From NCBI GenBank assembly GCA_045837725.1, contig JBEWZL010000274.1:1-40949 (forward strand): 40,949 nucleotides of DNA, written 5' to 3'. The stretch comes from Vermamoeba vermiformis (lineage: Eukaryota). A program made the position numbers and the translations under genes. Positions 1,780-30,500 of the stretch are shown piece by piece. Below the pieces are notes generated by a model. The model was not told the DNA's origin and did not search any database. It saw only the letters and a list, made by a program, of their open reading frames with translations. Within the stretch, counting starts at the first letter, position 1. Each line of letters opens with the position of its first letter.

Positions 1780-3296
1780 TTACAACTTGGATGTGTATGT
1801 TTTGAGCACACTCGACGGCAGCACTGGATAAGTGCGTGCTGGATCTGACATGGTACATTCAAAGGTGAAGCCGCCAGGACCTACTACTATTCTATTACGT
1901 GCCTGAGGACCTGGAGACCGCGGTAAGTTTGTTGAGCGTGAGAATAAAGATAAAAGTTTTTTCAGTGAAAATTACCTAAGTTGGAAGTGTCAGGATGATC
2001 GGCATCGCCAGGCATGCAAACAGACAAGCCACCATCTTGGAACGTCAAATTAGGTTGCACCGGTCTATGTCAAAATAAGAAATCAGTAAGTTACTTTCTA
2101 AGCGAGCTCTATATATGAGTACTACTCTATTAAATATTAAGATACCTTAGATCTCTCTTTGGTGCAGCAGCCACGAGTTCTTTGAGTGTTTTGTACTGAC
2201 AGATCTCCATCAAAATGAACCTGAACAACGCATGAGATTCATTGATGAGTACTATAGTGATAGACTTACCATGTCGGCGGTGCAATAGAAACTGTTTTTT
2301 CGTTCCATTTTTCAATCACTTCTTGCGGATGGAACCAATCAAAAGACACCGTTTCCACATCTAAACCGATCCGTTAGTTGATGGACTTATAAGGAAATTA
2401 ATATGGTCCTCGTACTATCTTGATGCACGTGATCACGTTCGCCTTCTTCAACGTCATCTACAGCGATATAGAAGTGCGTGTCGTAACGCCATTTCTCTTG
2501 GATCGGCGTTATCCAACGAGCCCAATGATGTAATTTAGTAACCTACTAGTATATCAGTAACATATTATAATCTATCATATTCATACCTCAGGAACTGTTT
2601 TATGCTCGCGCATCAATGAAATAAACTCCTTCGCGTCTTTATTAACCTTGGATCTGGTACACGATTAGCGTCGAGTACCAATATAGAATGATAATTTTCA
2701 AATAATACTTACCTCCATTCAGATGATGGCTTAACTCGAGGATTCGTCAATAACAAGTTTGTTTCTTCGTACAACTCGCGGATGCCGCCCAAACGAAGAT
2801 TTAGCTGCGAAGAGAAGACATTTTAGCCATAAAAATTCATATATTATGTATTATTAAGCTCTTACGTCTTTAACTGACGATGATTCTTTGCTACAAACGC
2901 TTTGCCAGGCAGGATCCGAGTCACCTTCTTCCAAAATGCCTCCAGGAAAGACATGGGCTCCTTAACAAGAACTATATTTAATAAATAATATTACAATGCA
3001 CATTGAAAGGATTTACCTGGCAGAAAGCGACTTTTCATCGATCTCTTGACCTGCAATCAAATAATAGCGTTAAAAAATCAAATAATTACGTTACTATTAA
3101 ATATGGTCATTATGGATCAATATTATCAAGTAAATGTGAATAACGCAATATTTTCTGTGGTTGTAATCTTTTTATGTATGTGACACGCAGGGAAGTTGAA
3201 TCCTACCATTAATATTTTGTAATCAGAATATTTGCTCGCATGATTTTTAATTGGCTTGCATAATAATACTGTGGCTGCTAGTTTCGGGACACTCAT
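1780..3296 (-). CDS. NUDT19: NUDIX hydrolase, NUDT19-like peroxisomal acyl-CoA diphosphatase, copy 1 (multi-exon)
   Basis: Spliced product MSVPKLAATVLL...VFPGGILEEGD...IRELYEET (Nudix box with insertion)...HWARWITP...RYDTHFY...LHPPTW. C-terminus is SKL (PTS1). The splice sites I checked are intact. Confidence 0.85.
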
Positions 3297-3514
3297 GGTT
3301 CAATAAACAATCAAAATTTCTCCATTTCCTTGAAGTTAACCCGACATTCTGGTCTGCTGTACTGATCACAAACTGAGAGCCTGGTATAGTTAACATAGCA
3401 CGGTTGCATCTTTGTTGCGGTAGAGTCTGTTAAAGACAAGATAAGCGAGGGCGCAGCGTGGATAGCCCTATCGACCGAGCGACTCGGCTTCCGCTCCAAC
3501 ACCGCCTTCAACAA

Positions 3515-3588
3515 GGTTCCATGGTGTAGTTGGTTATCACATCTGCTTCACACGCAGTAGGTCCTCGGTTCGATTCCGAGTGGAACCA
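3515..3588 (+). tRNA. tRNA-Val(CAC)
   Basis: Acceptor GGTTCCA/TGGAACC, A box TGGTGTAGTTGG, anticodon loop TT-CAC-AC, T arm CTCGG-TTCGATT-CCGAG, oligo-T terminator. One T:T mismatch at the top of the anticodon stem. Confidence 0.96.
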
Positions 3589-4010
3589 TTTCTTTTTTGC
3601 TTTTCTTTTTGCCTGCGATACCTCGATAGCAAACTGCTTTGCGAACCTTTTTGCTCGAGCGAACTCCATAATGTCCTTATGTCGAGTAAGTAGCCAGTAA
3701 CCGCATCTCTCAGGCGGCAGTTACATCTTAATCCATCTACCCAAACTCACTTACTACGAACAAGGGATGCCTGGACTACCAACTATCGTAACTTGCTATC
3801 GCTCAACCATGCAGTATTAATAGACCGATGAGCACAATGTCATTTCAAACAAGCAGAACCTTGAAAAACGGTTGTCGGCCGAATGCACACTGTCGGAGAA
3901 CGGCGAATGTCAATCGAGACATCCACCCGAGCCGTGACTGCGCACAACAGCAAAGCAAAGGAAATGGTTTGCTTCTGACCGATCCAGGGCCTGTTTTTGC
4001 TGAATGACAC

Positions 4011-4413
4011 ATTTTTCATTTTATTTCCGCGCTGCTAAGCAGCCCGTAGATGAAAATTTATTAGTCTAGCAATATCAAATTACAAGGACCGAGTGTGAGA
4101 TTTCCCAGCGCGTTGTATTCGTCCATGAACTTTGCAACCGTGGCGCTGATGCGCTGTGGTAGTTCGGCAGGCGACTTGCGCAGAGTAGTGTTGGTGGTGC
4201 AGGCGATCCTACGAGCCAGTATTGCCGACAGAGTGGTTGAGATTTCCTTCTTGTAAGCGGAGACAATCCCGCTGGTTGAGAGGCCTTCACCTGTGAAGTT
4301 GAGCGAGTGTACAGTGCGGAAAATGAGCCATAGTTTGAGTGTTTGGAGTATTAATTCGATGCCGCTGAAGGCGAGCGGTAGGACCGCCTCAGGTGTCCAT
4401 GGTAGTGGTGAGT
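4011..4413 (-). mobile_element. Putative 5'-truncated non-LTR retrotransposon fragment upstream of tRNA-Ile
   Basis: Flanked by exact 10-bp direct repeat TGAATGACAC (4001-4010, 4414-4423). Minus-strand frame is open from the junction to TAA at 4061 with no ATG at the junction, followed by a short stem-loop UTR and A-rich end (AAATAAAATGAAAAAT). Confidence 0.62.
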
Positions 4414-4431
4414 TGAATGACACTCAACAAC

Positions 4432-4505
4432 GGCCGTTTAGCTCAGTTGGTTAGAGCATCGTGCTAATAACGCGAGGGTCCCAGGTTCGATCCCTGGAAT
4501 GGCCA
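4432..4505 (+). tRNA. tRNA-Ile(AAT)
   Basis: Acceptor GGCCGTT/AATGGCC, D arm GCTC/GAGC, anticodon arm TCGTG-CT AAT AA-CGCGA, T arm CCAGG-TTCGATC-CCTGG, oligo-T terminator. Confidence 0.97.
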
Positions 4506-4731
4506 ATTATTTTTTTTGTTTTTACGGGGACCTTCTTCATTAATTAACCCCTTCTTGCCCCATGTACCCTCCTTTTGCACGTGTGTCTTTGGAGTTTTAA
4601 AGAAAAGTTCTTGATCAGCCGATTTTCGTATCATTTGCTTTCCATAATTGATCGTTACACTCAGGTCTACATTGAGGGCTTCCCTTCGTTATTTCCGAAG
4701 CCTTTTTTGGGTTGTAAGCAACGCGGTTGCG

Positions 4732-4772
4732 TTTTGCGCGCCTTTTTTTCGCGGGAGATTTTGGCGCCGAAA
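4732..4772. promoter_or_regulatory. Cluster of E2F-like sites upstream of SCC3
   Basis: TTTTGCGCGCC, TTTCGCGGG and near-palindromic TTTTGGCGCCGAAA (4759-4772, matches TTTSSCGC), about 70-110 nt upstream of the ATG. Confidence 0.5.
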
Positions 4773-4843
4773 TCAATCTATTTTCATTCTCGCCTTTGCC
4801 TTGACCACCACAAAACCTTGGAAGACAGCAAAGGAATAATAAA

Positions 4844-7800
4844 ATGAGCACTAAGAAGAGGTCATCCAAAGCGGCAGTTGAAGAGTAAGATTGCTCGATC
4901 TTTTAAATTAATTTTTTTTGGATTAGTTTTCCAATAATATTAGTTATTTTATTAAAATCTAATTCATTGTTAGGGTCTCCGATAACGAGAAGGAGAATAC
5001 TCAAAATCTCTCTGCTGAATCTCCTGGCTCGGCTAGCAAAAAACGAGCAGCCAACGATTCCCCTGCTCCCTCTAGACCCAAAAAATCACAAAAAAAATCA
5101 AAGGGCGACACTCCTGGCCAAGGAGCTCAAGCAGAGGAAGAGCAAGAAAAGAAAGGCAAGAAACGAAGACGATCGGAGCCAGGAAGCCCAAAGAAAACAA
5201 AAAAGAAGAGAAAGAGCGATGGTGATGGCTCTGATTTAACCGAAGAGAATGTAAAATTATTTGGTAAGCACTTAAATTGTGTTGTTCGAACTTCCGTCTG
5301 ACATCTTGACTTCCGCAGAAATTATGAAGAGCAGAAATGCAGCTCTTACAATCACTATCGACGAGTGGCTTAAAACCTACGAAGAAGAAAAGGAAGACGC
5401 AATGTTCGCGTTGGTGAACTTCATTGTTCAATCTTGCGGTTCGACTGCCACGATTGCCCGCGATGAATTCGACACTTTTGAGCCCAATGATGACATTAAA
5501 GCCATCTTGCGTCGTCTTACTGAAGAGACTGGCCTTGAGGCCGTAAGTACAGAGCGTCTTATACATAAACGTATGGAGACTGATCTGTTCGACCAACAGG
5601 AAGGAGGAGAATATCCTATCGTGTCGCGCAAACAAGCCTTGAAGAAGTTCAAGGCAAACTTCATGGAGTTTTGGAAGAAGTTGATCAGCCAATGCTCCAA
5701 GACTGTTCTTTACGACGGCTACTTCTTGCCTCAACTCATTGGTTGGGTCAACGCCATTTCAGAGTACGTTTGGCCCTCTTGCTCCATAAAACAAGTACTA
5801 ACGTTAGTCTTGCAGAAACGACATCAGAACTTTCCGTCACACTGCTACAGTTATCGGCTTGCAAATCATTCGCTCGTTGTGCACAGTCGGAGCTTCTCTT
5901 CGCAATCAACTCGAGACAAACGATCGCTTGTTGAAGGCCGAGAATAAGAAGAAAGACGCTGAAAAGTCTAAGGTGACTAGCTTAACAAAGAAGTCTCAAC
6001 AATTAAACAAGAACATTGTTTCCATCGAAGAGCACATCAACGACTTGTTCGAGCAGTAAGTCTTACTGTGAACCTGAATAGGCTCAGTTCTAACAGCTCT
6101 AATAGTATCTTCGCTCATCGTTATCGTGACATCTTCCCCGACATTCGCTCAGCTTGCATTGAAGCTCTTGGTCAATGGATGATGGAGTACCCCGCGTTCT
6201 TCTTAACGGACAACCACTTGAGATACTTCGGTTGGATGATTTCTGACAAGGTTGGTGAAGTCCGCATCACCGCTCTCAAGTCAATGCAAAAGCTCTATGC
6301 CAAAGACGATATTCGCGTGCAATTGGACAACTTCACTCAGTACTTCAAGTCGCGCATCATTCAAACGATCGAAGACAAAGTCGCCGCTATTGATAGCATT
6401 ACTTTGAACGGTCAATTGGCCGAGTACGTTCATCTTAGACATTAACGCAAGGCGAACTAAGTTCTGACGATTCTTTGTAGGGCTGAGCTTCTGGATGAAG
6501 ACGACATTAACAGAATCTACGCCTTGATTTCTGACGAAAATGCTGCCATCCGCTTTGCTGCAGGCGAGTTTATCTATCAACACTTGCTCAACAAGACTAG
6601 CGCCGATCCTTCCAACCCCGACCACGACGCTCAGTTGAGAGCTTTCTTGGACTTCATCGAAGAAAAGACTCAACACGCCGAGTTGCCCAACTACATCGTC
6701 GACGCTTTGTGGGGCAAGGCTGCCGTTTTGAAGGATTGGGCTGCTATGACCAACCTCTTGCTCACTGAGTCTCAAAAGAAGGCACTTTCGGACTCACAAC
6801 AAACTTTGTTGGTGCGCATCCTGAATTGCTCCGTGAAGAAGGCTTGCGGTGAAAAGATCGTTCCCAAGACTAAGGCCGATCCTGACCACAAGGACAAGAA
6901 GGAGGCTATTCAAGAGAACAGAAGCAAGCTCAGCGAGCACCTCGTCAAGGCCTTACCTCAAGTTTTGCAGAAGTTCAAGGCTGACAAAGAAAAGACCGCT
7001 GACTTGGTTGAGATCCCTCAGTACTTCGACTTGGGAGTGTACTCGACTTTCAGATTGACCACTCAACACAAAGAACTCCTCAAGTTGTTGCAAGAAATCT
7101 TCAACAAGTCAGTCGATGAGTCTACCTTTAGAAATATTGCCAAGACTCTTAGCTACTTCCAACAAGAGAACGAAAACGCTCGTCAAACAGACGTTGCCAT
7201 AAACGAGCTTAGCGATACTGCCTTCACAAAGTTCAGATCTGCTTTGGACAACGCCGAGAGCGAGGAGTCCGAAGAGGAGCTGGCTTTGACCCTTGCTCTT
7301 CAACGTCTTGCTGAACTAACCAAGTACTTGGGTCTCGCTCATTTGGACGATTTGTTCGACACTGTCGATAACGCTCTTCGCCGAAACCTTGCTGCTCATG
7401 GTGACGAGCCTGTTATTCGCGCATTTGACATCTTGTTCTACCAACTTGCTTGGGCCAGAAGCAAGATCGATCCTAGCAGACCTGATACCAATGCTATCGA
7501 CACTCTCGTCAGAAAGCGCGACGCTGTCTTCAGACTCTTGGAGAAGTATTTGACCAACAAGTCTGTTGCCATTGCTGAAAAGGCCTACCTGGTTGCAAAC
7601 GACATGCTTATTTTGTTCTCCAAGAGCATGCGTGAAGCCAAGACATCTTTGTCATCATTGGCTTACTCTCCTTCTGCCGCCTTGGTTACTAAGATCCGCG
7701 GCTTCTTTGACGATGAAGTCACAAACAAGCAAACTTTCCGCGATGACGAAGACGAAATGGCACGCAAGGAGAAGCTGATCACTGCTCTTGCCAAGTCTAT

Positions 7801-8905
7801 TGCCTTCAACGCCCTCAACGCTGAGCACGCCCCTGCTGTCCTTTGCAACTTCGTTAGCCACGGCAAATTTATTGAAGAAATCGTCAAGACTTTCTTGCAC
7901 AAGATTCGTGAGAAGTACAAGGACTTCGAGTATCGTTTCGTCTTGGAAACCTTGAAGATCAAGTACGAGCAAATCGAATCTTCTATTACTGAGGGCGAAG
8001 CAGTCACCGTTCCCACTAGTCCTCAAAAGAAGAAGAAATCTAAGTCCAAGAAGACTGATGACGAAGAAGACCAAGATAAAGAGAAGGAAGAAGAAGACGA
8101 CTTGGAAGAGGACGACGAAGACACTGCGACCCGAACACCTCTTCGTGCCCTTGAACGATTGTCCAAGCGTTTGGCTGATACCTACGGTATTCCTACTCAA
8201 CGACACGAATGGCTCAGAAGGAGTTTGTATCAAGTGGTGAAGAGCTGCATGTACTACGCTATCGAGGACTTCCCCTCTCGTGTCAACTTCTTCCGAGCTG
8301 CTTTGTTCTTCTTGTCCAAGCTTGACGCTCAATCTGCTCGCATCTTGCGTGATGACTTTAACCGCAAGACCGCTGATCTCGAGTACGACGAGTTTGACCA
8401 CAAGCTCCGACCTTTCTTGTCCTTCAAGGAAAAGCTTGAACGCTTGGCCTCCGGTGAGAAGGGCAGTCCTGCTAAGAAGAAGGCCACCACTTCCAAGAAG
8501 CAGTCTGAGAACGTTCGCAAGAAGCTAGAGTTCACCAAGTCCAAGCAGTCCAAGGACAGTGAAGAAGATGAGAACAATGAAGAGGAAGAGGCTCTTGAAG
8601 ACAAGCGCAAGACTAAAGGCAAGGGCAAGGGCAAGAAACAAACCGAAGAAGAGGAAGAGCCCGAAGAAACCACTTCGTCGAAGAAAAAGGGCGCTAAGGG
8701 TAAGGGCAAGAAGCAAGCCTCTGAAGAGGAAGAAGCCTCTGAAGAAGAGCCCCAACAAAAGAAGGGAAAGAAGGGCACTAACACTTCTCGTGTTCAATCT
8801 ATTTACAGTGAAGAAGAGCCCGAGAAGAGCGACGAAGAAGATGAAAATACAAGCTTCGATGAAGATCAGATTCGCGAAAAACTTTTTGGAACTCGAAGCA
8901 AGTAG
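4844..8905 (+). CDS. SCC3: Cohesin subunit SCC3/STAG (stromalin), multi-exon
   Basis: LVNFIVQSCG, EYPIV...KKFKANF.EFW, RTFRHTAT, IFAHRYRDIFPDIRSACIEALGQWMMEYP.FFL.D..LRYFGW (stromalin conserved domain). Long last exon ORF 6524-8905 with an acidic/Lys-rich tail. Confidence 0.93.
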
Positions 8906-17174: not shown

Positions 17175-20100
17175 ATGAAATATTATAAACGTAAGTTAAT
17201 AGTTGATTATTAAGTGCTGTTCTAACTGGTCTGTAGTCCCGATCGCGTTGATTATTTATCTGGCTTTGACCTGTCAGCTCCTCACGGAAGGTAAATATTA
17301 GAAAATAGTATTATAATATTAACGCATATTATAGGATGTTTTGTCGACCAGTTTTTGTTACCGCACAACGCGATCTTGCCCACCATGGCAGTTGTTGGTG
17401 AAAATATTTTATTTGCCGGTGGATACATTGATAACCAACAGACACCCACAAATATAATCGATATTTATAACCCAACTACGAATAGATGGACCGTACATAC
17501 AATGTTCAAAGCCCGAGAAGGAATGACAGCTGCAGTAGTCGGATCAACCTTGCTCCTTGCTGGCGGATGGGAAAAATCTTCCTGGAACGATAATCAATTA
17601 GTCAGATCAAGTTTAGTGGAGATTATTGACTTTCAAAAGAACATTTCGTGGATGGCACATCTGAATTCCACTCGCCAAATTTCAGCTGTTGCTGCTGGAG
17701 GAAAAGTCTTATTTTACGACAAAGCGTCACAAATTACAACAATAGATATATTTGACTTAGCGTCGAACACGTCAGAAGTTGTGCAACGAGGATTTTACTG
17801 GACCGCATCTGCAGTTGGCAACGACATTCATTTCTTTACAAATTCAGAAGTAGATATTTATCATCCATCAAATAACACATGGACCAGCGAATCCCTCGGA
17901 ATAGACATTTTGGGAGATATAATTGACTCCTTTGTAATCAAAGGTGACATTTATTTGATCACTGCACGGAGCATATTTATACGAAGATACGGAACGACCA
18001 GATGGCAGCTAATCAGCTTAGGCTTCGGCCATATTAGCTACCGTCTCGTCCACTATGACGTGCTATATATGATGGTTGGCCCTAGTCGCACTAAGATCAA
18101 CACCGTGTTCACTTTGGACGGCCTAACGGGCAAACAACTTTCATGGGACTACGAGCCATACAACTTTGGCATTGAAGGCAGTGTTATCGCACATCAAGAC
18201 AAGCTCTATTTCGTTGGTTGGTCTGCTAATGCTATTCAACGAGTGTTCCCACAAGTGCTCGTGTACGATGCCATTGACACGCGTCATCGATTAGTCGCAT
18301 TGCCGAAGGACGACTATCAACTTCAACAAATGCACGAGCACAGAGGAAAGCTCTTTCTTGTCAACCGTGAAGCAGTGTCGCCATCAGCCTTCGTCTACGA
18401 CCTGTTGCTTGACAGCTGGCACTCGGTCGACTTTGATGACCCGAGAAGTGGCGTTATGATCACTTCTTCTGGCAACCAAGTCGTGTTCTACGGAGGAACG
18501 TACAGCCCATACAACGCATCCAAGTCGGTCCATGTCTACAACACTGACACGGATCTTTGGGCCCACTACAAAACCAGCGTGTCGGGCAAATTCGCCGTCG
18601 TGCGCAATGGTTGGCTCATTTTCTATGGCAACATTTACGGAGAACCAACACCGCACGTGGACGTATTTAACATACAATCTGAGACCTGGACAGCACACTC
18701 GTTAACTAATTCAGCGTCCGACTACTTCACGGTGATATTCGACACTAAAGTAGCGCTATTGGCAAAAGATGTCATCACGAGCATTGACGTTTTTGACACG
18801 TCAACTCAGCTATGGACCGAGTTCTACCTTCAAACACCGCGCTCTGATTTCACGCACATCTCAATCAACGGCATGATTTATATAGCCTGTGGCATCACTC
18901 TGGATCCAATGGCCTTCACAAACTCGCTCGAAGCATACGACTTGAAGTCACTGCAATTCGTTTTCGAGCGAAATCTCTCTGACGCCCGTGCCAAGCCCGT
19001 GGCTGCCGTGTCATTCCCATACGTTGTATTCGCTTGTGGGTCTCGCAATGGATTCCCGGTGTCTGCTATAGACGTGTACAACATGGAAGATGACACGTTA
19101 CGACAAACGACTTTCAGACGTCCAGAACTCATTGGATCCGATTTTGGTATTGCATCTGTTGGCGACACAATGTACATTAGATACAACAACTACTTATGGA
19201 TGCTTCGGCTGCGCACTCTCGAGCTGACACAACCTGTCGCTACGCCGTTCATGGCTGGCGGACGAAATTTCGCTATTGGAAACAACCTCGTCTTCTACGG
19301 CCAATCGGATTTTCTGGAAGTGTTTTATTTCTGGGAAACTACGACTAACGAGCACTTTCAAATGGCCACGCCGTACCTCAGCGAGTACACGCAGTCCACA
19401 TTAGTATGGAAGAACTTTTTGGTCATATATTTGGGGGATCTCGTCATCATCGAACTTTCAACCGTCTGGACAGGCCTCACAGACCGTGATTTGTTCATTG
19501 GTGAGACGACGACACTGGCTGTGGACGCTGTTGGCAATGGCCTCGAGTACTTTTGGTACCACGAGAACACCAAGCTCGAGGAAGTGCGTCCGTTCTTGTT
19601 TTTGAACACGAGCTCGCCTGATTTCAGAGAGGGCCGTTACTGGTTGGCGATCAAGGACCACTGTCGCTCGTACATGGAGTTGTACTCAAGAGTTGAACTG
19701 CTTGGTCCACCGACTTTCGAGTCACAATTGGACAATCGTACTGTGCTTTGTAACGCCACAGCCCTTTTGTTCCAGCTCAATACGGACGGCAGAAATGTCA
19801 GCTTGGATTGGACGATCAACAACGAACACAGAAGTAGCGTTGTCAACTCGACTTTTGTCCTGGATCTGCGCCCGCTCACATGCGACTCAACCAATCAGCT
19901 CTGTGCCACAGCAACGAACCCGTCAGGTTCTGTCAGCACGTGCAGTAACATTCACCTGGCTAGCTTAGGATCTATATTTAATGGTCCAAGAATGTCACCT
20001 GAACTGCAACTTCGATCGGTCGGCTCGTACGTCACACTTCGTGTTGACATATTGGATGACAGGTGCAAAAATCATACCTGGTTCGTTGACTCTGAAGAGC

Positions 20101-21715
20101 TAGGCTCGTTCGAGGCTTCATTCAGCGAGCTTGAAGTCCAGTTGGAGCGAAACGTAGAAAGTCAGAGATACATCGTGACCACGACATGCGATGGCTCGAA
20201 TTTGATGTCCGCGCCACTTATCATCACTTTGTCACCTTTGCCGGCGTGGGGTCTGGCCGCCATTGTGATTCTCGGTGCCGGTATTATTGGCGGTGCAATT
20301 GCCGCGGGTGTCATTGTTCGACGAAGATTCAAGCAGGGCAAAAAGCAAGAAGTCGAGTTGAAGACAATGCTCAACAAGGCTAAGCAAGAGGTCCTGACCA
20401 AGAACGGCACCACGATTATCAGCACAACGAGTTGGGAATGGTCGCCTGATGACGAGCACATGTTCTGTCCTATCGACAAGTTGCCTGTCACCATCGACTT
20501 GTCAAACCTCGGCTTCAATCTGAGTGACCCTATTGAAGTCAATATTTGGACTCAAGGCACCATTGTCATTTCGTCCAAGAAGGCCTCAAAGAGTGCACTG
20601 CCGTTCTCATCATTATTGCACCAAAGTCTCATTGATGACGAGATTGATATCTACGTGCCGAAGTCGCCAAAGTACGAGCTAGAAGTCAATCCTCTGTCAT
20701 TCAGGGTCTCTGACGGATCAGTTACAACTCTCAACGTCTCAGCGATGATGAAAATGACGACTAAGGCGAAGATTCCGCTCGTCATCGTGATGGAAAAGAA
20801 GAAAATTTATTCGTCGATTGACTTGGTCTTGCGAAGCAAACCATCGCCTTGGATCGATCTTGACAAGGTCAAACTGACTGGTGAAGTACTTGGCCAGGGA
20901 GGGTAAGTTGACGCAATGCTTTATTCTTCAAAGTTATTAATCGTGTTTGTAGATTTGGTGTCGTTAAGCGAGGTGTCTACAAAGGCCAAGATGTCGCTGT
21001 CAAATTGCTCTTGACGCAAGATTTGATCGACGAGACGAAGAAAGAATTTGAGCGAGAAGTGTCACTCATGAAGAACTTGCATCACCCGAATATTATTCAG
21101 TTCATCGGTGCCTCTAACGTCGAAGGCAAGCTCGCCTTGGTCACGGAGTTTGCGCCGCTTGGAAGTCTTGGAACGCTGTTGGAACGAGAGTTCATCCCGT
21201 ACAACATCAAACTTGTGATCGTGCTCGAGATTGCTCGTGCTATCAAGTTCCTTCATTCGAACAATATCATCCATAGAGACGTCAAACCACAGAACATCCT
21301 CGTGTTTTCGCTCGAGCCCAAAGCCACTGTTCACGTCAAACTGACCGATTTTGGCACGTCAAAGTTCGTGCCTGACACGTCCTCTGTTAACATGACAAAG
21401 TATACTGGCACAGCGAAGTACATGGCCCCCGAGACCTTCGGTGTGGATCCACGATTCACGCTCAGCGCAGACATTTACAGCTTTGGCTTGTTAGTATGGG
21501 AAGTCATCACAGGCCAGGATGCATTCTCGGAGAAACAATACATGTGGCAATCAAAAATCGAAGAATTCGTATTGTCTGGAAAGAGAATGCCTATCCCTGA
21601 AGAAATGGACCCTCGACTAGCCTCAATTATCGAACAATGTTGGGGCCAAGATCCGGCAAAGCGCCCGTCCATGACTCACGTAATTCAACAACTTTCAGCA
21701 CTTGTGTACGGATAA
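17175..21715 (+). CDS. Single-pass receptor kinase 1: signal peptide, Kelch-like repeats, Ig-like domains, TM, TKL kinase
   Basis: Signal MKYYKLPIALIIYLALTCQLLTEG from two small exons. Repeats ILFAGG..IDIYN..W. TM WGLAAIVILGAGIIGGAIAAGVIV-RRR. Kinase LGQGG|FGVV, VAVK, HRDVKPQN, KLTDFG, YMAPE. Confidence 0.92.
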
Positions 21716-22897: not shown

Positions 22898-25800
22898 TTA
22901 TTTAATATTCGACAGTCGTTGTACAAGAACGTTAATTGAAGGACGTTGTTTTGGTTCGTGTTGCCAGCAATCTTCAATCAGTTTCACCAACGATGCATCG
23001 ATATCGTGTCCATGAGGGAATGGAAGTCGATTGCCTGATTTGACGTGTTGTTCGATGTCTGAGTCCCATTTGAAATCTTTGAACGGCACTTGTTCGAACA
23101 ACACTGACCACATCAGCACTGCAAAACTGTAAACATCTGCACTCTTGTCAATGCGTGGATTGCGACCGAGTGCTTCTGGTGCCATGAATGCAATTGTACC
23201 AACGTTCTTTGTGATCGTTGTGGGGTCATCAGCGATGAACCGTGATGTGCCAAAGTCAGTCAGTTTCACATGCACTGCTGCTCTTGTCTCGAGTGAGAAC
23301 ACGAGAATGTTTTGAGGCTTGATGTCGCGATGAATCACTCCGTTCGAGTGAAGGAACTGCAATGCTTTGGCAGTCTCCAACAAGCACATCACTTTGAACT
23401 GAACTGACAGCGACTGTTTCTCCATCACACTTGCAAGACTGCCAAGAGGTGCGTACTCGATCACAATTGCCAAACTCTCTGTGACATTCGATGCACCAAC
23501 GAACTGAACAATGTTGGGATGTCGCAAGCTCTTCATCAGTGTCACTTCTCGCTCGAACTCGATCTTCATATCATCAGTCAGATATTGACTCAGAAGCTTC
23601 TTCACAGCTACTTCTTGACCTCGATACACTCCTCGCACAACTGAACCGAATCTACAACAAAGTGTCAGTCCGTGTCAAAGTGTCAAAGATGTCATTCCGT
23701 GTCAACTTACCCTCCACCTCCAAGGAACTCTCCACTCATTTCAATCTCTTCAAGATCGATCCACGTTGACATCTTGCTGTCAAGTTTGAACTCGATGGCT
23801 GAGTAGATCTTTTGTTGTTCGAGAACAACGATCAGAACCACTTTGCATCTCGTTGTCATTCTCATTCGCACTGACACTGTCACTGAGTGCGATTCACCTC
23901 CTTCAAGGTACAATGTCTCGGGCTCAACAGTCACTTCGTACTTGGGTGATTGAGGTGCGTAAATGTCAATCTTCGTTCCTGAGATGAGCTTCTCTGTCAA
24001 GATGGTCGACTTCTTGGTCTTCTTTGGTGTTCGCGATGATATTTGAAGCTCTTTGTTGAAGTTCATCTCGATATCAAGTGGCTCTCCTTTCTCAACGAAC
24101 TTCAGCTGTGAGGTATCGATATCGACAGGGAGACTGTCAAGTGACTTGTATGAGAAGTCTTCGCTTGGTTTCCATTGCCATGTTGTCTTGTTGATGATCG
24201 GCATCGATTCTTTCATCAACGAGTCAGTCTTTGCATTGGAGAGGAGTGCTGAGAGTTCAACTTCTTTGTCTTGGCTTTGATTCAGTTTCTTGCGTTGCAG
24301 CACGACGACGACAATGAACACTGCAACACCCAAGAACACACCAATGACCAACAACACAACACCGTAAACTGGAAGTGGTGACACTTGTTCGAAACTGAAT
24401 CTGCGTGACTCGATGAGACTGTTGCCACATGTTGCAACAACGTAGTATTGATACGTGGCCATTGAAGGTGACAACTCGACTGAGAATGTGCTGCTTCGTG
24501 TTTCTGCTTGTGTCACATTCACTCCGTTAACATACCACACATGACTCGTGCAGGTTTGTTCCAGGATATCTACACTCAGCTCCACGGTTGTATTGGAGAA
24601 CCATGTTGGTGGAGTCGTTGATGGAAGTGGTCCTCTGATCACTGAGTCAAGTTCGAGCATCTTCACTCTTGCACACGATTGTGTCTGGCCTGATGGATTG
24701 GATGCGTACGCACACACCAACGCGCGAGTGTTGCACGGCATGTGACTGGTTGATATGCTTAAAGTGGGAGAGGAGTTGGTATCAACTGTCACTCCGTCAA
24801 TGGTCCACGTGTACTCCACAGCCACGCCATTGGCTTCAATCGGAAGCTCCTCCACACGATCACACAAGGCTACAGAGTCTTTCAATGGAACACTGAACAT
24901 TGGCACATCGTGAACTGTCAGTCTCGCTTGGTGAACAATGTGAAAGTTGCAATGATCGAGCATGTCAACACGATACATTCCGTCTGAGTGCATTGTCACA
25001 TTGTCGAGGATCAGTGCGGGATTGCCATCTTGAATGGCTTGCCCTTCGTGGGTCCATTGATATCGTAGTGGAGGACCTGCAGTGGTCACTGTGAGGTTGG
25101 TTGATTGGCCAATGAATAGCTCCTTGCCGTTGAACCCTTCGAGCAAGGTCGATAACGGCATTACGTAAGGTGTCGTGCGTTCTACGTTGACAAAAAGATA
25201 GTTCGAAACTGTGCCAATCAACGAGTCAATAGATGGTAACGTAAGGAAGGTCCAGTCTCCTGTTGTAACTTCGTAGATTGTGACGGTGACGATGCCTACG
25301 CCAGGCGGATGTGATTGTACAATAAGCTTCGAGCCCAAAGTGGTCATTGTAGCTAAGTCGGAGACTGGGAAAGGAAGTGTTGTGATGGCGCCAGTCTTGA
25401 CATCGACTGCATCGATTGTAATTGACCGGCCAATGAATAGTTTGTCGCCAATTGCTGCTAGTATCACTCTGTTTGAGTACAATGTGCGAGGCAGCACAAC
25501 AGATCTCCACGTAAGGCTAGTTGTGTCGAACAACTCCACGGGTTGAGTCTGCGTCAAGCTCAGTCCTGTAAAGGCTGCGTAGTTGCCAACCACTGCCATT
25601 TGTAGTCTTGACATAGGTGCTGCGAATTGGTGTGTTCTGATGTTGCTACTCCGAACATCAATCGTGTACGCCAAGTCTCCGTCCATTCGCGTTGCAAAAA
25701 GAACGTAATTAGCCGCATGAATCGAAGTCCATTGTCCATTAATGGGAAACTCGCGCAACGCTCTTCTTTCCACAACGTCGTATAGAACAACGCTGGATGA

Positions 25801-27406
25801 AGCTAGCACGGCCAAAATATTGTCCTTGTACAGGGTGGCGTGTAGTGCGGCAAGAGGCACTGTGGTTAAACTGTTTTCATTGATATCGAACAAATGAATG
25901 GTAAGCGTGGCCAGACCCTGTGTCACGCTCATAAAGGCCACTAAATCTCCAAAAGCTACGGCAGCTTGGACTGTGTTAATGGGCAAGTCTATGATGTCCA
26001 CGCTCTGACTATCAAAGTCGTATAAAAAAACTGAAACTTGTCCAATGAACTGCGATACATAGGCGAGCTTGTGTTCCATTAGAACGTAAATAGGATTCTG
26101 GCTACGAAATCTGTCTCCAGCTGCTGGGTGCACTGCCAAACTTCTCGAGTTGAAGTCGTACGTGGTGATGCTTGGCTCTTGAAAGAAGAATATAACGTCG
26201 CGCGATATGAAAGTGGCACGTGTCGAGAGTGTCAGAAGCGGCGTAAGTGTATAGCGTGTGTTGAACACGGAAAATTGTCCGTTGTCAAGTCTCGCGAATA
26301 TCATTCCGTTTGCAGCAGCTGACATATCAAAATTGGTATTCAGCGGCAAGTTGTGCTGTATTTCCAATTCCAAGAACGGATCAATGATGGTGTAACCTGA
26401 GCCAATCCGATAAATCTTCTGATTTATAACGACTGTCGCTGTCGCACTGCGTGCTCTACTTTGTCGATACATGTAGGTGATGGTGTTGCCGGTTGTTGTT
26501 GAATAAAGAACGGCTCGCCTTGGTCCAAGAAAATAAACAAATCCATCCGAATAAATGACTTGAAGTGTTGCAGCCACGTTCATGACCACATCCGATATTG
26601 TCAGGGTCTCCAAGTCAACAATATAGATCATATCGCCAGTTCTTGTAATTAAAAATGCGTGAGTTTCGTTGGTCGCTCCTACATAATATGGATTTATGGA
26701 TCTTGTTTCTAGCGGTGTAAACTCCAACGTTGTTAAATCAAGTAGTAACGGTGGTACTATTGGTGTAGTTTCGTGAGCATTTCCAAATATGATCGCCTTG
26801 GACTGTCCCATAATGACTCTATTATATCGATATTGTTCAGGGATTAGAATGCTTGTCAAGCTGTCACTGTTCAGATCGTAGATCTCAATAACTCTGCTAT
26901 CAACATTAGATTCGCCTATTCCTCCGACAAATATTATTTTTGAGCCAGATGAGTCAGCTGAAATACGCCTTCGTGGTTGAGTGAGGTTGAAATGGGTCCA
27001 TTCACGGGTGGAAGTGTCAAACACGGCCCCCTCAGAAGAGAGTTTGTTGTTGCCATCTATTCCACCAGCGAATAATACTTTATCTCCTGATGCAACCAGT
27101 GTTATCTCTCTTCTTTGATTTGGTAGTGACAAGGGTAAAAAGCAACCTAAAAATTACCAGATGAGCTACTCCGATCGCAATAATTAGGAATCGCCGATAC
27201 AAATTTGCTGTGCCTTTAAATAAATAATTTGCAAATAATCCAGGGGTCACAAAATTATCGAATCCATTTTTTTGTTTGGATCTGCTTACCACTCGACAAA
27301 GGCAACAATAATAAACATGCCACTACGAATATTATTATAGTGTCGCCTAAAAGTATATTATAATTAGAAGCTCCAGTTTAACTTCACACCGTCACTGACC
27401 TGTCAT
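22898..27406 (-). CDS. Single-pass receptor kinase 2, paralog of 17175-21715
   Basis: Signal MTGDTIIIFVVACLLLLPLSSG from two small exons. ORF 23707-27132 with Kelch-like/Ig region and TM YGVVLLVIGVFLGVAVFIVVVVL-QRKK. Kinase exon with VAVK, HRDIKPQN, KLTDFG, FMAPE. Same intron positions as the paralog. Confidence 0.92.
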
Positions 27407-27548: not shown

Positions 27549-30500
27549 TTATTTGCTTTCCTCTTTTGGTTTGGCAACGATATTATCATTTGCTGTAGTT
27601 GCAGCCTTTTCGTCATTTTGCGCCAGTTGAGCCAAATTGACGTGCGCCAAAAGATTAGCCGAAGTGCTCTGATGGTGATGATAAGCCGCGTCGTTCATCG
27701 AAGGAATAGGTGCTTTGTCAGGGTGCACCGTTTTCAAATGGAAACTAAACGGTCTGTACGAGGCATCATCTTGCGGTCGAGATCTGCATTGAGATTCAGT
27801 TAGCAGCTGCTAATTGCACTTGCTTAAGCTCGGGTGACTTACCTCATCAAGTCGACGACGGGGATAAGATGCTCCCATCGTTGTTTCTTGGGCACACGAC
27901 GCTTGAAGTCCATATTCGGAATCAGATCTGCGAACGGAATAAACTCGAAATCACCTCCGTTGATGCCAATTGCGCCAAACAACTCTTTGCCCGACTTGAA
28001 ATATTCGTCCATTTTATCGACAGCGTATTGGGCAAACTCAGCGCCACGAAGGCGGTCCATTGGCGAAGGCGAATAGCCCTAGTTAATGTTAGAACATATG
28101 AAATCCGTGAATGACACGCACCTGTTGCAAGTGACCAAGGATAGTGTGACGCACGTCAAAGAAGCCTTTGCCCTCTTCAGTAAAGATTTTCGACAAGATG
28201 TCAGTTGTGTAAGTCTCGCTCGCCCTCTCGCTGTTAATGACCAAGCTCGTCGTCTTGCACATTTTGAATCTCTTTTTCATGCGGTCGACGTCATCAGCCA
28301 ATTGTCGTAGAGTAATGCCGTGTTCAGGAGTGTAACATAACTGTGCACCACCAGCGATGGAGCCACAAATGCCCAAATAGCCGCAGTTGCCACCCATGAC
28401 TTCCATAATGAAGACACGAGCACGCGATGCCACGGCACTCAGCTTGACTTTATCGGCACTCTAGTGATGGTGGTCAATGCTGCGTTGATATAAAATGATA
28501 AGGCTTACTTCGACAATGCAGTTCAAGGCTGTGTCAGATCCGATAGACACGTCAGTTCCCGGCACGTTGTTGCTGACAGTAGCAGGAACGCAAATGATGG
28601 GAATGTTGAATTCAGGGTACTTCTCTTTGTTCTTGTGAAGGGCAATGGCTGCAGCATAACCTTCCCAACCACCGATAAGCAGCATTCCCTATCAAAGTAT
28701 TAGCCAACCGAAGACTGTATATCTTCCGGCTTACCTTTATCTCGTATTGCTTGAAGCACTTGGCAATCTTTTCAAACTCCTCGTCTGTGCTTGGGATAGT
28801 CCTGTTTGTACCTAACAAAGAGCCACCAATGTTTGACCAGCTATTCGAAGTTGGGATCAGATGTGGTGCACGTGCTATTTTTGGAACTTACCCGTTCACA
28901 CTGAGCCATTGAAGCTCTTCAGGCGCGTCACCTCCATCGAGGATATCTTTAATTCCGTTGTAGAGAGCCATCGGTCGGTAACCCTTGTTGATCAGCATTC
29001 TCGTAGCACAACGAACGGCGCTGTTCATGCCGGGCGCAGGAGCTCCAATGTGGGTGATAGCAATTGCAGGTTTCTAAATGCAATTAGCTATATACTATAT
29101 AATAAGAGCGTGGCGTACCTTGACAGAATCAGGCAAAATGACCGGAGCAGATCGAGTCAAAACAAAAAGCGTCTTCAAAGCATTGTTGAATACTGGTCCG
29201 CGTAGCTGCATAGCCTTCTCGTATTCTCCGTCGCGAATTGCCTGGCCAATTGATTGAGTCTACATAACGAACCGTTAGAGCTCATCCGGAAGATCTTCGT
29301 CGATCCATAAAAAAAGATTAACAAGCTGTTTAGCTAGAGCCCTCGAGACAAAAAATCGAAGGAATAAAAGCAAAAAAGAGAAGAGCACAACACCTCCGAT
29401 TCCCAGGTAGTCTCCTACCCCAGTACTAAGAAGGCCTGAATAAGCTTAACTTCGCTGATCGGACGGGAAGCGGTGCATTCTTGTTAGTGTGGTCGTACCC
29501 GAGAGCGACTGCAACATCGTGTTCGGGTCACTACTTGCGACCATTGGGTCGTGTTCTTACCATTTTTACGGCCTCCATCAAGTTGGATCGCACGACCTTG
29601 GATCCGCGAATACCAATCAACGTGTGTTGAAAGCCTGGTTTAGCGTCCAATATGGCTTCAACTGCCTCCATGCCCATTTGAGTGCTCTATGTGCCTCATT
29701 AATACTTGACCACTATTATGCCTATTATTACGTACCAACAGTCTGTCGTAGAAACATGGAGTGCCACCGCGCTGGATGTGACCCAAAATTGTGACACGTG
29801 CTTCCATCTTCAAATCTCCTTCAATAACGTCCTTCACTTCATTGGCTGTGATGATCTTTCCTTTCGTGTCACGTGCTCCTTCAGCGATGATAATGACGCT
29901 CATTCGCTTGCCGCGGTCACGGCCCTTCTGAACTGATTTGCACATCTTTTCTTTCCACGTCTCGTCGTTAGGGAACTCGGGCACGAGGACGTAATCACTG
30001 CCTGTGGCCAAACAAGCTGCAATAGCCTTAGATCTAGTCAGTCAAACACGCGCACTAACGCATGCATAAAAGTACTCACCAAATAACCACAATCGCGGCC
30101 CATAACTTCTACGACGAATGTGCGTTGATGTGAAGCAGCGGTAGTCATCAATGAGTCAATGCACTCGATAATTCGATGCAAGGCTGACGCTGCACCGATC
30201 GTCATATCTGTGCCCCACATGTCATTGTCAATTGAGCCAACCATACCAACTACATAGAAATTCTTTTGGTGTTCCTGCAAATATTACGAGCGTCAATTTC
30301 GTTTCGTCAATTACGCTACGCTGTGCGGATATCCGCACAAAGAAATATCACTTAAAACCACTCATTAATTTTGAACATTAGGCCTTCGGCTCTATGTTTA
30401 GTTTGCTTATTGTATTATATTTTGTTACTTACGTAGGAATATTTGGAAATTTTTCCTTCTTTGTACAATTCTTCGACGTACTCGGGCCATTCTCGACTCA

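What the first reader, a model, noticed from the sequence alone, without database searches (positions are those of the whole stretch)
4001..4431. TSD-flanked, 5'-truncated non-LTR-like insertion almost at the Pol III start of tRNA-Ile: candidate new tRNA-targeting retroelement
Seen: an exact 10-bp direct repeat TGAATGACAC at 4001-4010 and 4414-4423 encloses 403 bp, and the right copy ends 8 nt before the mature tRNA. Inside, the minus-strand frame is open from the junction for about 117 codons to a stop. A ~50-nt UTR follows with nested inverted repeats (TTTTCAT/ATGAAAA enclosing GCTGC-TAA-GCAGC) and an A-rich end touching the repeat. Known: this layout is the signature of target-primed reverse transcription with 5' truncation. 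Dictyostelid TRE5 elements insert upstream of tRNAs in this head-to-head orientation but roughly 50 bp away, while insertion nearer the start site is typical of LTR elements (Ty3, DGLT-A). Inference: a non-LTR element targeting about -9 to -18 of tRNA genes. ILQTLKLWLIFRTVHSLNF only loosely resembles L1-clade ORF2 C-termini.
Basis: partly seen in the sequence, partly recalled or inferred. Interest (0 to 1): 0.85.

Follow-up and report, generated by a model that had tools for sequence, protein, structure and literature searches.

The report
Truncated TRE-like retrotransposon beside tRNA-Ile
A dead, front-truncated copy of a jumping gene (a non-LTR retrotransposon related to the tRNA-seeking TRE elements of social amoebae) sits 18 bp in front of a tRNA-Ile gene, which hints that this unnamed relative also aims at tRNA genes but lands closer to them.

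Summary
The structural reading, a 5'-truncated non-LTR insertion with a target-site duplication, is strongly supported. The minus-strand frame 4064-4414 is 117/117 identical to the C-terminus of a 1119-aa endonuclease plus reverse-transcriptase protein, P0001. In public contigs, longer copies read on past 4414, while several copies stop sharing sequence near 4011-4014. A homologous locus joins the left flank straight to the tRNA without the element.

The closest named relatives are dictyostelid non-LTR ORF2 proteins. Two trees put the family in one clade with them, but outside the dictyostelid crown. The orientation (element 5' end facing the tRNA 5' end), the 3' hairpin and the endonuclease/RT/zinc-knuckle layout match TRE5. 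The distance of 18 bp does not: TRE5-A lands about 47 bp away. It also differs from NLTR-A, which lands 2-6 bp away and carries an RNase H domain.

Family-wide tRNA targeting could not be tested. No genome is held and no other copy's flanks could be fetched, so it rests on one insertion plus phylogenetic kinship. Verdict: a real, recent, dead-on-arrival copy of an undescribed TRE-related family, probably but not provably Pol III-directed.

The parts
4001..4010 (.). Left copy of the target-site duplication, TGAATGACAC. It is the native upstream block of the tRNA-Ile gene, now displaced 413 bp from the gene.
   Evidence: Exact repeat. In a homologous locus the left flank up to 4002 is joined to 4424 with only 9 letters between (tables 5 and 5c).
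4011..4063 (-). Element 3' UTR: stop codon TAA at 4061-4063, nested hairpin, an AATAAA, and a short A-rich end (...GAAAAAT).
   Evidence: Sequence. Fold -13.5 kcal/mol, z -3.22, 0/200 shuffles. A multi-copy contig begins at 4014 in X2 and at 4025 in X1, so copies stop sharing sequence here (table 8).
4064..4414 (-). The last 117 codons of the element's ORF2, downstream of the zinc knuckle. There is no start codon context, so the copy was dead on arrival.
   Evidence: 117/117 identical to P0001 residues 1003-1119. 75% identical to P0002 and 47% to P0003. Longer copies continue past 4414 with letters that encode the preceding P0001 residues (table 7).
4414..4423 (.). Right copy of the target-site duplication. 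Its first base, 4414, is also element sequence (1-nt microhomology at the truncated 5' junction).
   Evidence: The loose ends 'behind 4414' in X1 and X2 show that identity to longer copies runs through 4414.
4424..4431 (+). TCAACAAC, an 8-nt leader directly upstream of the tRNA. A near-identical TTCAACAA precedes tRNA-Val. It is a candidate Pol III start region (inference).
   Evidence: Contigs of other tRNA-Ile copies in 4 of 4 runs match from 4424 on and differ before it (table 7).
4432..4505 (+). tRNA-Ile(AAT) gene, intact, followed by a T-run (4507-4518).
   Evidence: ARAGORN. Rfam tRNA 65.4 bits against a gathering score of 29. Sequence.

Best explanation
**Shown.** Positions 4011-4413/4414 are a 5'-truncated, non-functional copy (3' UTR plus the last 117 codons of ORF2) of an APE-endonuclease/reverse-transcriptase non-LTR retrotransposon. 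The copy lies on the minus strand with its 5' end facing the 5' end of tRNA-Ile, 18 bp from the mature tRNA start (8 bp without the duplication). It is flanked by a 9-10 bp target-site duplication. A homologous locus without the element exists.

**Inferred from TPRT geometry.**
- The element's endonuclease nicked the tRNA-sense strand between -9 and -8 (GACAC^TCAAC), right in front of the conserved TCAACAA leader.
- The freed 3'-OH primed reverse transcription of the hairpin-bearing 3' end of the element RNA.
- The second nick fell 10 bp further upstream.
- Synthesis aborted early, and the cDNA was joined through 1 nt of microhomology.

**Inferred from kinship.** The family belongs to the same clade as the dictyostelid tRNA-gene-targeted TRE elements. 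It shares TRE5's orientation, so it is most likely guided to Pol III-transcribed genes by the bound TFIIIC/TFIIIB complex, but docks nearer the start site than TRE5.

**Confidence.** The figure of 0.7 is for the whole statement, including Pol III-directed targeting. The insertion identity alone I put at about 0.97.
For: - **Identity.** P0001 (1119 aa) matches 117/117. It has RVT_1 at E 5.5e-32 and Exo_endo_phos at 5.4e-4, which is below Pfam's cut-off in P0001 but above it in family members P0003 and P0005.
- **Family.** P0003, P0005 and P0006 are 53-54% identical over the full length.
- **Boundaries.** In each of X1 and X2, two contig variants of 4310-4414 run on past 4414. Translated, the overhang gives the P0001 residues just before the match. 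A multi-copy contig over 4014/4025-4339 has 4-5 times the depth of the window-identical flank contigs (193 vs 39-43 in X1; 694 vs 175 in X2). The tool warns that this depth is not a copy number.
- **Empty homologous site.** One X2 contig (depth 167) joins 4002 to 4424 with 9 letters between. In X23 a tRNA-Ile contig carries 21 upstream letters that, by eye, resemble 3991-4000 plus the same 9-letter type.
- **Independent samples.** A water-metagenome contig (X4, 450 nt) has 1 difference over 4098-4414 and runs 133 nt past the junction.
- **Kinship.** The first named hits are Dictyostelium dimigraforme (E 8.7e-106) and Acytostelium subglobosum (2.2e-98); the next tier is at or above 1.2e-55. In the LG+G4 tree (50 rows) a 25-row clade holds the dictyostelid proteins, the window family and P0007-9 (SH-aLRT 97). 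In the mixture-model tree (23 rows) the matching 14-row clade has support 100 and the dictyostelid crown 98.
- **D. discoideum's non-LTR elements.** They are one family of seven related elements named TRE5/TRE3 (PMC5391098, passage).
- **TRE5-like traits.** In TRE5-A the 5' end faces the tRNA 5' end, and a 3'-terminal hairpin is essential (PMC3159450, passages). Here the hairpin has z = -3.22.
- **Zinc knuckle.** It is present as a C-x2-H-x8-H-x4-C variant in 4 of 4 family members. No RNase H was found.
- **Position.** This is the only retroelement-like stretch in the window: 235 query proteins gave 5 HSPs, all in this stretch. The 50-bp upstream zones of the window's three Pol III genes cover 0.37% of it (my arithmetic).
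Against: - Only one insertion of the family could be placed relative to a tRNA gene, so a preference, and a preferred distance, is not demonstrated.
- The finding was picked because it lies next to a tRNA. Chance neighbours are expected somewhere in a large scan.
- The window family lies outside the dictyostelid crown clade, so it need not share the targeting trait.
- The TRE5 versus TRE3 identity of the Dictyostelium proteins in my trees is not labelled. NLTR-A, NLTR-B and named L1, Tx1 or other reference elements were not in the trees.
- 18 bp lies outside the 23-181 bp range of 1,003 mapped TRE5-A integrations. The TRE5 docking geometry is therefore not conserved.
- The other two Pol III genes in the window, tRNA-Val and 5S, carry no copy.
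- ORF1, which mediates TFIIIB contact in TRE5-A, could not be examined.
- The 15 distant relatives fetched from metagenomes (21-31% identity) have 0 tRNA genes on their contigs.
Confidence: 0.7

Rival explanations
1. Untargeted insertion. The family inserts more or less anywhere, like most L1-type elements, and this copy landed next to a tRNA gene by chance. It may have survived there because tRNA-upstream DNA is a harmless place in a gene-dense genome.
For: - Only one insertion was seen.
- The nick site GACAC^TCAAC gives no clue either way.
- The finding was selected for its tRNA neighbour.
- The family sits outside the dictyostelid TRE crown.
- tRNA-Val and the 5S gene in the window are unoccupied.
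Against: - The chance of falling within 50 bp upstream of one of three Pol III genes in 41 kb is 0.37%, and half that with the TRE5 orientation (my arithmetic).
- Independently of position, the element's nearest named kin are the tRNA-gene-targeted TREs.
- The nick falls exactly at the edge of the conserved TCAACAA leader.
Confidence: 0.2
2. Sequence-specific rather than complex-directed targeting. The endonuclease recognises the conserved block upstream of tRNA-Ile genes (...TGAC.. / TCAACAA), as R1, R2 or Tx1-type elements recognise a DNA sequence. The tRNA association would then be a by-product.
For: - Upstream sequences of other tRNA-Ile copies in the runs resemble the window's 3990-4010 block and share TCAACAAC (table 7, read by eye).
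- tRNA-Val also carries TTCAACAA.
Against: - No second insertion is available to show a shared target sequence.
- The kin elements, TRE5-A for example, depend on the B box and TFIIIC rather than on an upstream sequence (PMC5391098, passages).
- The tRNA-Val site carries the same leader motif and is empty.
Confidence: 0.08
3. Not a mobile-element insertion. The open frame is an exon or pseudogene of a host gene, and the 10-mer repeat is a chance match.
For: - Exact 10-mers at this spacing are common: 88 pairs in the window.
- The fragment alone has no Pfam hit.
Against: - 117/117 identity to the C-terminus of an RT protein.
- It is multi-copy in the source sample, with longer copies reading through the junction.
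- A homologous locus lacks it.
- The frame has a stop directly upstream (4424-4426 on the minus strand) and no usable start.
Confidence: 0.01

Closest known systems
TRE5 elements of Dictyostelium discoideum (TRE5-A/DRE), L1-clade non-LTR retrotransposons
   Same: - ORF2 layout is APE endonuclease, RT, zinc knuckle, with no RNase H (review PMC5911963, passages).
- Insertion is upstream of a tRNA gene, with the element's 5' end facing the tRNA's 5' end (PMC3159450).
- There is a structured 3' end, a short A-rich tail and 5' truncation.
- It shares a clade with the Dictyostelium non-LTR ORF2 proteins.
   Different: - The distance is 18 bp. For TRE5-A, 80.2% of 1,003 integrations lie at 47+/-3 bp, with a range of 23-181 bp.
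- Identity to the Dictyostelium proteins is only about 30%, and the family branches outside the dictyostelid crown.
- The zinc knuckle is CHHC, not CCHC.
- ORF1, the A/B/C modules and the -1 frameshift could not be checked.
- The host is not AT-rich like D. discoideum: window GC is 34-49% per kb.
NLTR-A of Dictyostelium purpureum (Spaller et al. 2016, PMC5006619)
   Same: It is a non-LTR retrotransposon found very close upstream of the mature tRNA coding sequence. A start-proximal non-LTR position therefore has a precedent.
   Different: - NLTR-A lies 2-6 bp upstream and carries an RNase H domain after the RT.
- Here the gap is 8 bp (18 bp with the duplication), and no RNase H is detected.
- NLTR-A is described as only distantly related to the TREs. 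No NLTR-A sequence was available for comparison.
Ty3 (yeast) and DGLT-A (dictyostelids), LTR retrotransposons
   Same: [quoted passage not shown] See PMC5006619 section 11 and PMC5911963.
   Different: These are integrase-based LTR elements. This one is an APE/RT element that inserts by TPRT, with no LTRs and a 9-10 bp duplication.
Ordinary 5'-truncated 'dead-on-arrival' LINE insertions
   Same: A target-site duplication, an intact 3' end, a truncated 5' end and microhomology at the 5' junction.
   Different: The nick site is not a T-run/A site, and the copy has no long poly(A). It lies at a Pol III gene, and its kin are targeted elements.

Membership tests
Non-LTR (LINE-type) retrotransposon copy made by TPRT | Derived from an element that encodes a reverse transcriptase and an endonuclease | tested here: met
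   117/117 identity to the C-terminus of P0001. RVT_1 E 5.5e-32. Exo_endo_phos is above Pfam's cut-off in family members P0003 (27.8 bits) and P0005 (31.5 bits).
Non-LTR (LINE-type) retrotransposon copy made by TPRT | 3' end shared among copies, 5' end variable, target-site duplication, empty site exists | tested here: met
   Longer copies pass 4414. The multi-copy contig ends at 4014/4025. An exact 10-nt duplication sits at the boundaries. A contig joins 4002 to 4424.
TRE superfamily (dictyostelid tRNA-gene-targeted non-LTR elements) | Phylogenetic placement with the D. discoideum TRE ORF2 proteins | tested here: inconclusive
   The family is in one supported clade with them (SH-aLRT 97 and 100) but outside the dictyostelid crown (100 and 98). 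No TRE5/TRE3-labelled or L1/Tx1 reference sequences were in the trees.
TRE superfamily (dictyostelid tRNA-gene-targeted non-LTR elements) | ORF2 is APE, RT and a zinc-finger motif, without RNase H | tested here: met
   Pfam. The C-x2-H-x8-H-x4-C motif aligns with the CCHC of the Dictyostelium proteins in 4 of 4 family members.
TRE5 | Integration about 47 bp (40-54) upstream of the mature tRNA | tested here: not met
   The one copy lies 18 bp from the tRNA. This is outside the 23-181 bp range of 1,003 TRE5-A integrations.
TRE5 | Fixed orientation, with the element's 5' end facing the tRNA's 5' end | tested here: met
   The element is on the minus strand and the tRNA on the plus strand, with the truncated 5' end adjacent to the tRNA. 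n = 1.
TRE5 | ORF1 protein that contacts TFIIIB; ORF1/ORF2 overlap with a -1 frameshift; A/B/C modules | not testable with these tools
   No DNA of a full-length copy could be fetched.
TRE5 | Family-wide association of copies with tRNA genes | not testable with these tools
   No genome is held. Only this copy's flanks are known.
NLTR-A (D. purpureum) | RNase H domain downstream of the RT | tested here: not met
   No RNase H family at E <= 0.001 in P0001, or at E <= 0.1 in P0003 and P0005.
NLTR-A (D. purpureum) | [quoted passage not shown] | tested here: not met
   8 bp from the duplication and 18 bp from the element. n = 1, and the paper's counting convention was not checked.

The most novel reading that the evidence does not exclude
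The window family and its unnamed relatives P0003/5/6, and perhaps P0007/8, form a sister lineage of the dictyostelid TREs living in a different, not AT-rich, protist. It already targets Pol III genes, but nicks at the transcription start (-9/-8). That would make it a Ty3/DGLT-A-like position reached by a TPRT element. tRNA-gene targeting in this clade would then predate the TRE5/TRE3 split and the dictyostelids, and the docking distance would have shifted during evolution.
Probability: 0.4. Interest if true: 0.75.

Novelty: new member of a known kind. Interest (0 to 1): 0.55.

Why it matters
Spaller et al. 2016 (sections 9 and 11) state three things. TRE-like elements were not found in Physarum, Acanthamoeba or Protostelium. 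[quoted passage not shown] The origin of the TRE ancestor and of its integration preference 'remains to be determined'.

This family is an out-lying relative of the TREs, with recently active copies: identical copies and an empty homologous site. One of those copies sits at a tRNA gene in the TRE5 orientation. That gives a concrete family on which the question can be tested. A non-LTR element that nicks at the Pol III start site would also be a new point of comparison for how TPRT machines read the TFIIIB/TFIIIC complex.

My literature searches found no description of such a family. They cover only the held open-access library.

Tried and rejected
- **Whole-genome copy map.** Impossible, because no genome is held.
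- **Other copies in the window.** BLASTN/TBLASTN of the insert and of 235 related proteins found none.
- **JGI metagenome contigs.** The C-terminal profile found 0 relatives among 268 pattern matches. The full-length profile found 15 loci at only 21-31% identity, none with a tRNA gene (0 of 15). These are too distant to bear on this family.
- **IMG/VR viral contigs.** 0 relatives.
- **GTDB genome contigs.** 0 relatives with the C-terminal profile. The full-length profile gave 2 matches on bacterial MAG contigs, confined to the endonuclease-domain part of the query (residues 76-211 and 127-191); I took them for bacterial nucleases without inspecting them.
- **Cluster look-up.** It gave contig lengths only (3.7-6.9 kb for the family's ~1120-aa ORF2 copies, clusters 1 and 3-5), no DNA and no names.
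- **Earlier findings of the scan.** Nothing for this genome or sequence. A word search returned two Naegleria LINE notes that are unrelated to this case.
- **Host taxon.** The protein atlas on the cohesin SCC3 gene gave only generic eukaryotic clusters.
- **Looking up the two D. discoideum gene ids in papers.** 0 papers, so I could not label TRE5 versus TRE3 in the trees.
- **Mixture-model tree on 50 rows.** It did not finish in two runs. I replaced it with LG+G4 on 50 rows and the mixture model on 23 rows.
- **P0004.** This is a repetitive bacterial-type protein matching 39 residues. I dropped it as spurious.
- **Solo-LTR reading.** Considered and rejected: there are no TG...CA ends and no 5-bp duplication, and the coding match to ORF2 explains the whole insert.
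- **Parts of the stretch without contig cover in X4 and X23.** I drew no conclusions from them.

Full report
**1. The observation**

The window is eukaryotic and no genome is held for it. Two tRNA genes lie on the plus strand: tRNA-Val(CAC) at 3515-3588 and tRNA-Ile(AAT) at 4432-4505 (Rfam 64.7 and 65.4 bits).

- **Repeat.** TGAATGACAC occurs exactly at 4001-4010 and at 4414-4423. The right copy ends 8 nt before the tRNA.
- **Frame.** The minus-strand frame is open from 4423 to the TAA at 4061-4063.
- **3' UTR.** As RNA it folds at -13.5 kcal/mol (z -3.22; 0 of 200 shuffles as stable).
- **Significance.** A 10-mer repeat at this spacing is not remarkable by itself. The window has 88 such pairs, about 21 are expected at random by my arithmetic, and 3 exact two-copy 10-mers lie in 3000-5500. 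What makes it meaningful is that it sits exactly at boundaries defined by other evidence (section 3).

**2. What the insert is**

- The 120-aa frame has no Pfam hit on its own.
- A search among longer proteins found P0001. It is 1119 aa, from a 4610-nt public contig, and is identical at 117 of 117 aligned residues (query 4-120 = P0001 1003-1119).
- P0001 has RVT_1 (E 5.5e-32) and an N-terminal Exo_endo_phos match (E 5.4e-4, below Pfam's cut-off). Family members P0003 and P0005 pass the cut-off.
- An exhaustive representative search found 3 proteins at E <= 0.001:
  - P0002, 139 aa, 75% identical;
  - P0003, 1125 aa, 48% identical over the fragment;
  - P0004, a repetitive protein that I discard as spurious.
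- P0003, P0005 and P0006 are 53-54% identical to P0001 over the full length.
- No RNase H domain is detected.
- The usual C-x2-C...H-x4-C knuckle after the RT is present as C-x2-H-x8-H-x4-C in 4 of 4 family members. It aligns with the CCHC of the Dictyostelium and L1-like proteins. The window copy starts about 18 residues after it.
- The fragment is therefore the extreme C-terminus plus 3' UTR of an endonuclease/RT/zinc-knuckle non-LTR element. It has a stop directly upstream in frame and no start, so it is dead.

**3. Boundaries, copies and the empty site**

Public contigs of four runs from three studies were laid on 3700-4700. X1 and X2 are one sample and may be the window's own source.

- **5' boundary.** In each of X1 and X2, two contig variants of 4310-4414 (0 and 5 differences) continue past 4414 with 10 letters. 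Read on the minus strand, these encode the P0001 residues just before the match. Longer copies therefore exist, and the homology ends at 4414. This gives a 1-nt overlap with the duplication, the microhomology typical of truncated 5' junctions.
- **3' boundary.** The multi-copy contig over the ORF begins at 4014 (X2) or 4025 (X1). The window-identical flank contig ends at 4054. Copies thus stop sharing sequence at the A-rich end. One further copy diverges at 4037.
- **Depth.** The element contig has 193 against 39-43 for the identical flank contigs in X1, and 694 against 175 in X2. This is roughly 4-5-fold, but the tool warns that such depths are not copy numbers.
- **Empty homologous locus.** One X2 contig (depth 167, equal to that of a contig with a second joint at 3854>3957) joins 4002 directly to 4424 with 9 other letters between. 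That is the left flank, one diverged homologue of the 10-mer, then TCAACAAC and the tRNA.
  - The left flank exists in at least three sequence variants at similar depth, so I cannot say whether this is an allele or a paralogue.
  - In X23 (another organism label) a 104-nt contig holds 4424-4506 without a difference, preceded by 21 letters. By eye these resemble 3991-4000 followed by the same kind of 11-mer.
  - The upstream letters of other tRNA-Ile copies in X1, X2 and X4 also resemble, by eye, the window's 3990-4010 block. I did not align these letters with a tool.
- **Independent occurrence.** X4, a water metagenome, has a 450-nt contig with 1 difference over 4098-4414 that runs 133 nt past the junction. 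X23 has an identical 202-nt piece (4064-4265).

With the boundaries fixed in this way, an exact 10-nt match on both sides has a chance of about 1e-6 (my arithmetic).

**4. Geometry and mechanism**

- The element's sense strand is the window's minus strand. Its 3' end is at 4011 and its truncated 5' end at 4413/4414, next to the tRNA.
- In TPRT (established mechanism; inference here) the cDNA is the plus-strand sequence 4011>4413, primed by the plus-strand 3'-OH at 4010.
- In the unoccupied site this is a nick on the tRNA-sense strand between -9 and -8, GACAC^TCAAC. The second nick lies 10 bp upstream on the other strand.
- The site is not the T-run/A site of L1. The element ends in ...AATAAAATGAAAAAT rather than a long poly(A).
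- The nick abuts TCAACAAC. tRNA-Val carries TTCAACAA at the same place, and other tRNA-Ile copies share the 8 nt. This is a plausible Pol III start region (inference).

**5. Kinship**

- With P0001 as query, the best hits after the family itself are unnamed proteins P0007, P0008 and P0009 (30-33% identity).
- The first named hits are Dictyostelium dimigraforme (P0010, 30% over 81% of the query, E 8.7e-106) and Acytostelium subglobosum (P0011, E 2.2e-98).
- The next tier, zf-RVT L1-like and RNase H-bearing elements, starts at E 1.2e-55.
- P0010 in turn finds D. discoideum AX4 proteins and the window family at similar scores (P0005 at 5.5e-108).
- D. discoideum's non-LTR elements are described as one family of seven related elements, TRE5 and TRE3 (PMC5391098, passage).
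- **Trees.**
  - 50 rows, 961 columns, LG+G4, quick search. A 25-row clade (SH-aLRT 97) holds an 18-row dictyostelid clade (100), the window family (4 rows, 100), P0007+P0008 and P0009 as an unresolved fork.
  - 23 rows, 899 columns, mixture model. The matching 14-row clade has support 100 and the dictyostelid crown 98. The window family joins P0007/P0008 with support 88.
  - Rows were chosen by me. No labelled TRE5/TRE3, NLTR or classical clade references were available, and composition differs strongly among rows. 'TRE-related, outside the dictyostelid crown' is therefore the most I claim.

**6. Comparison with known systems**

| Trait | TRE5-A | NLTR-A | This copy |
|---|---|---|---|
| Distance upstream of the mature tRNA | 80.2% of 1,003 integrations at 47+/-3 bp; range 23-181 bp | 2-6 bp | 18 bp from the element, 8 bp from the duplication |
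| Orientation | always with its 5' end facing the tRNA's 5' end | not checked | same as TRE5-A |
| 3' end | needs a 3'-terminal hairpin | not checked | hairpin, z -3.22 |
| Domains after the RT | zinc finger | RNase H | zinc knuckle, CHHC variant; no RNase H |

Other reference points are NLTR-B at 39-64 bp, also with RNase H, and Ty3 and DGLT-A (LTR elements) at about 15 bp (13-33 bp). The present copy shares TRE5's orientation, domain layout and structured 3' end. It has a DGLT-A/Ty3-like distance and lacks the RNase H of the NLTR elements.

**7. What is not shown**

- Whether the family prefers tRNA genes at all, and at what distance. No other copy's flanks could be obtained.
- The three Pol III genes of the window are tRNA-Val, tRNA-Ile and a dispersed 5S gene at 29382-29500. 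Their 50-bp upstream zones cover 0.37% of the window, and the only retroelement-like stretch in the window lies in one of them. The finding was, however, selected for this neighbourhood.
- The independent fact that raises the odds is the kinship with the TREs. I put Pol III-directed targeting at about 0.7, and a distinct start-proximal preference at about 0.4.

**8. Verdict**

This is a real, recent, dead-on-arrival copy of an undescribed TRE-related non-LTR family: a new member of the known kind 'tRNA-gene-associated non-LTR retrotransposon'. Searches of the held literature found no description of TRE-like elements outside dictyostelids. Spaller et al. 2016 state they were not found in Physarum, Acanthamoeba or Protostelium.

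Noticed in passing
window 3507-3514 and 4424-4431: Both tRNA genes are preceded directly by nearly the same motif: TTCAACAA before tRNA-Val and TCAACAAC before tRNA-Ile. Contigs of other tRNA-Ile copies in all four runs share the 8 nt and differ before it. This is a candidate Pol III initiator/leader element of this organism.
   Followed up: partly
window 29382-29500 (-): A dispersed 5S rRNA gene (Rfam 99.2 bits) lies among protein-coding genes, with a T-run after it. No retroelement remnant is nearby. D. discoideum keeps its 5S gene on the extrachromosomal rDNA element (passage), so this host differs in that respect.
   Followed up: partly
window 3700-4000 and 4597-4700: The flanks of the insertion exist in at least three sequence variants at similar contig depth in the source sample. 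These have 0, 5 and 9 differences over about 110 nt, plus a 102-bp skip at 3854>3957. The locus is therefore heterozygous or polyploid, duplicated, or from a mixed population. A water metagenome carries one of the diverged variants.
   Followed up: partly
family proteins P0001, P0003, P0005, P0006 (about residues 965-985 of P0001): In all four members the second cysteine of the post-RT CCHC knuckle is replaced by histidine (C-x2-H-x8-H-x4-C). The Dictyostelium and L1-like relatives keep CCHC.
   Followed up: partly
window 17355-21715 (+) and 23707-27132 (-): There are two large genes with N-terminal Kelch repeats. One is followed by a Tyr/Ser-Thr kinase domain ORF, and the other has a weak Ig_3 match. 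A cohesin SCC3 gene lies at 6524-8905 and a SAM-domain ORF at 40106-40939.
   Followed up: no
P0001 N-terminus compared with P0003: P0001 starts 11 residues later than P0003, which carries a further N-terminal stretch aligned opposite gaps. By recall, that stretch looks like the start of the endonuclease domain. The called ORF of the full-length copy may therefore begin at an internal Met, or that copy may be damaged at its 5' end.
   Followed up: no
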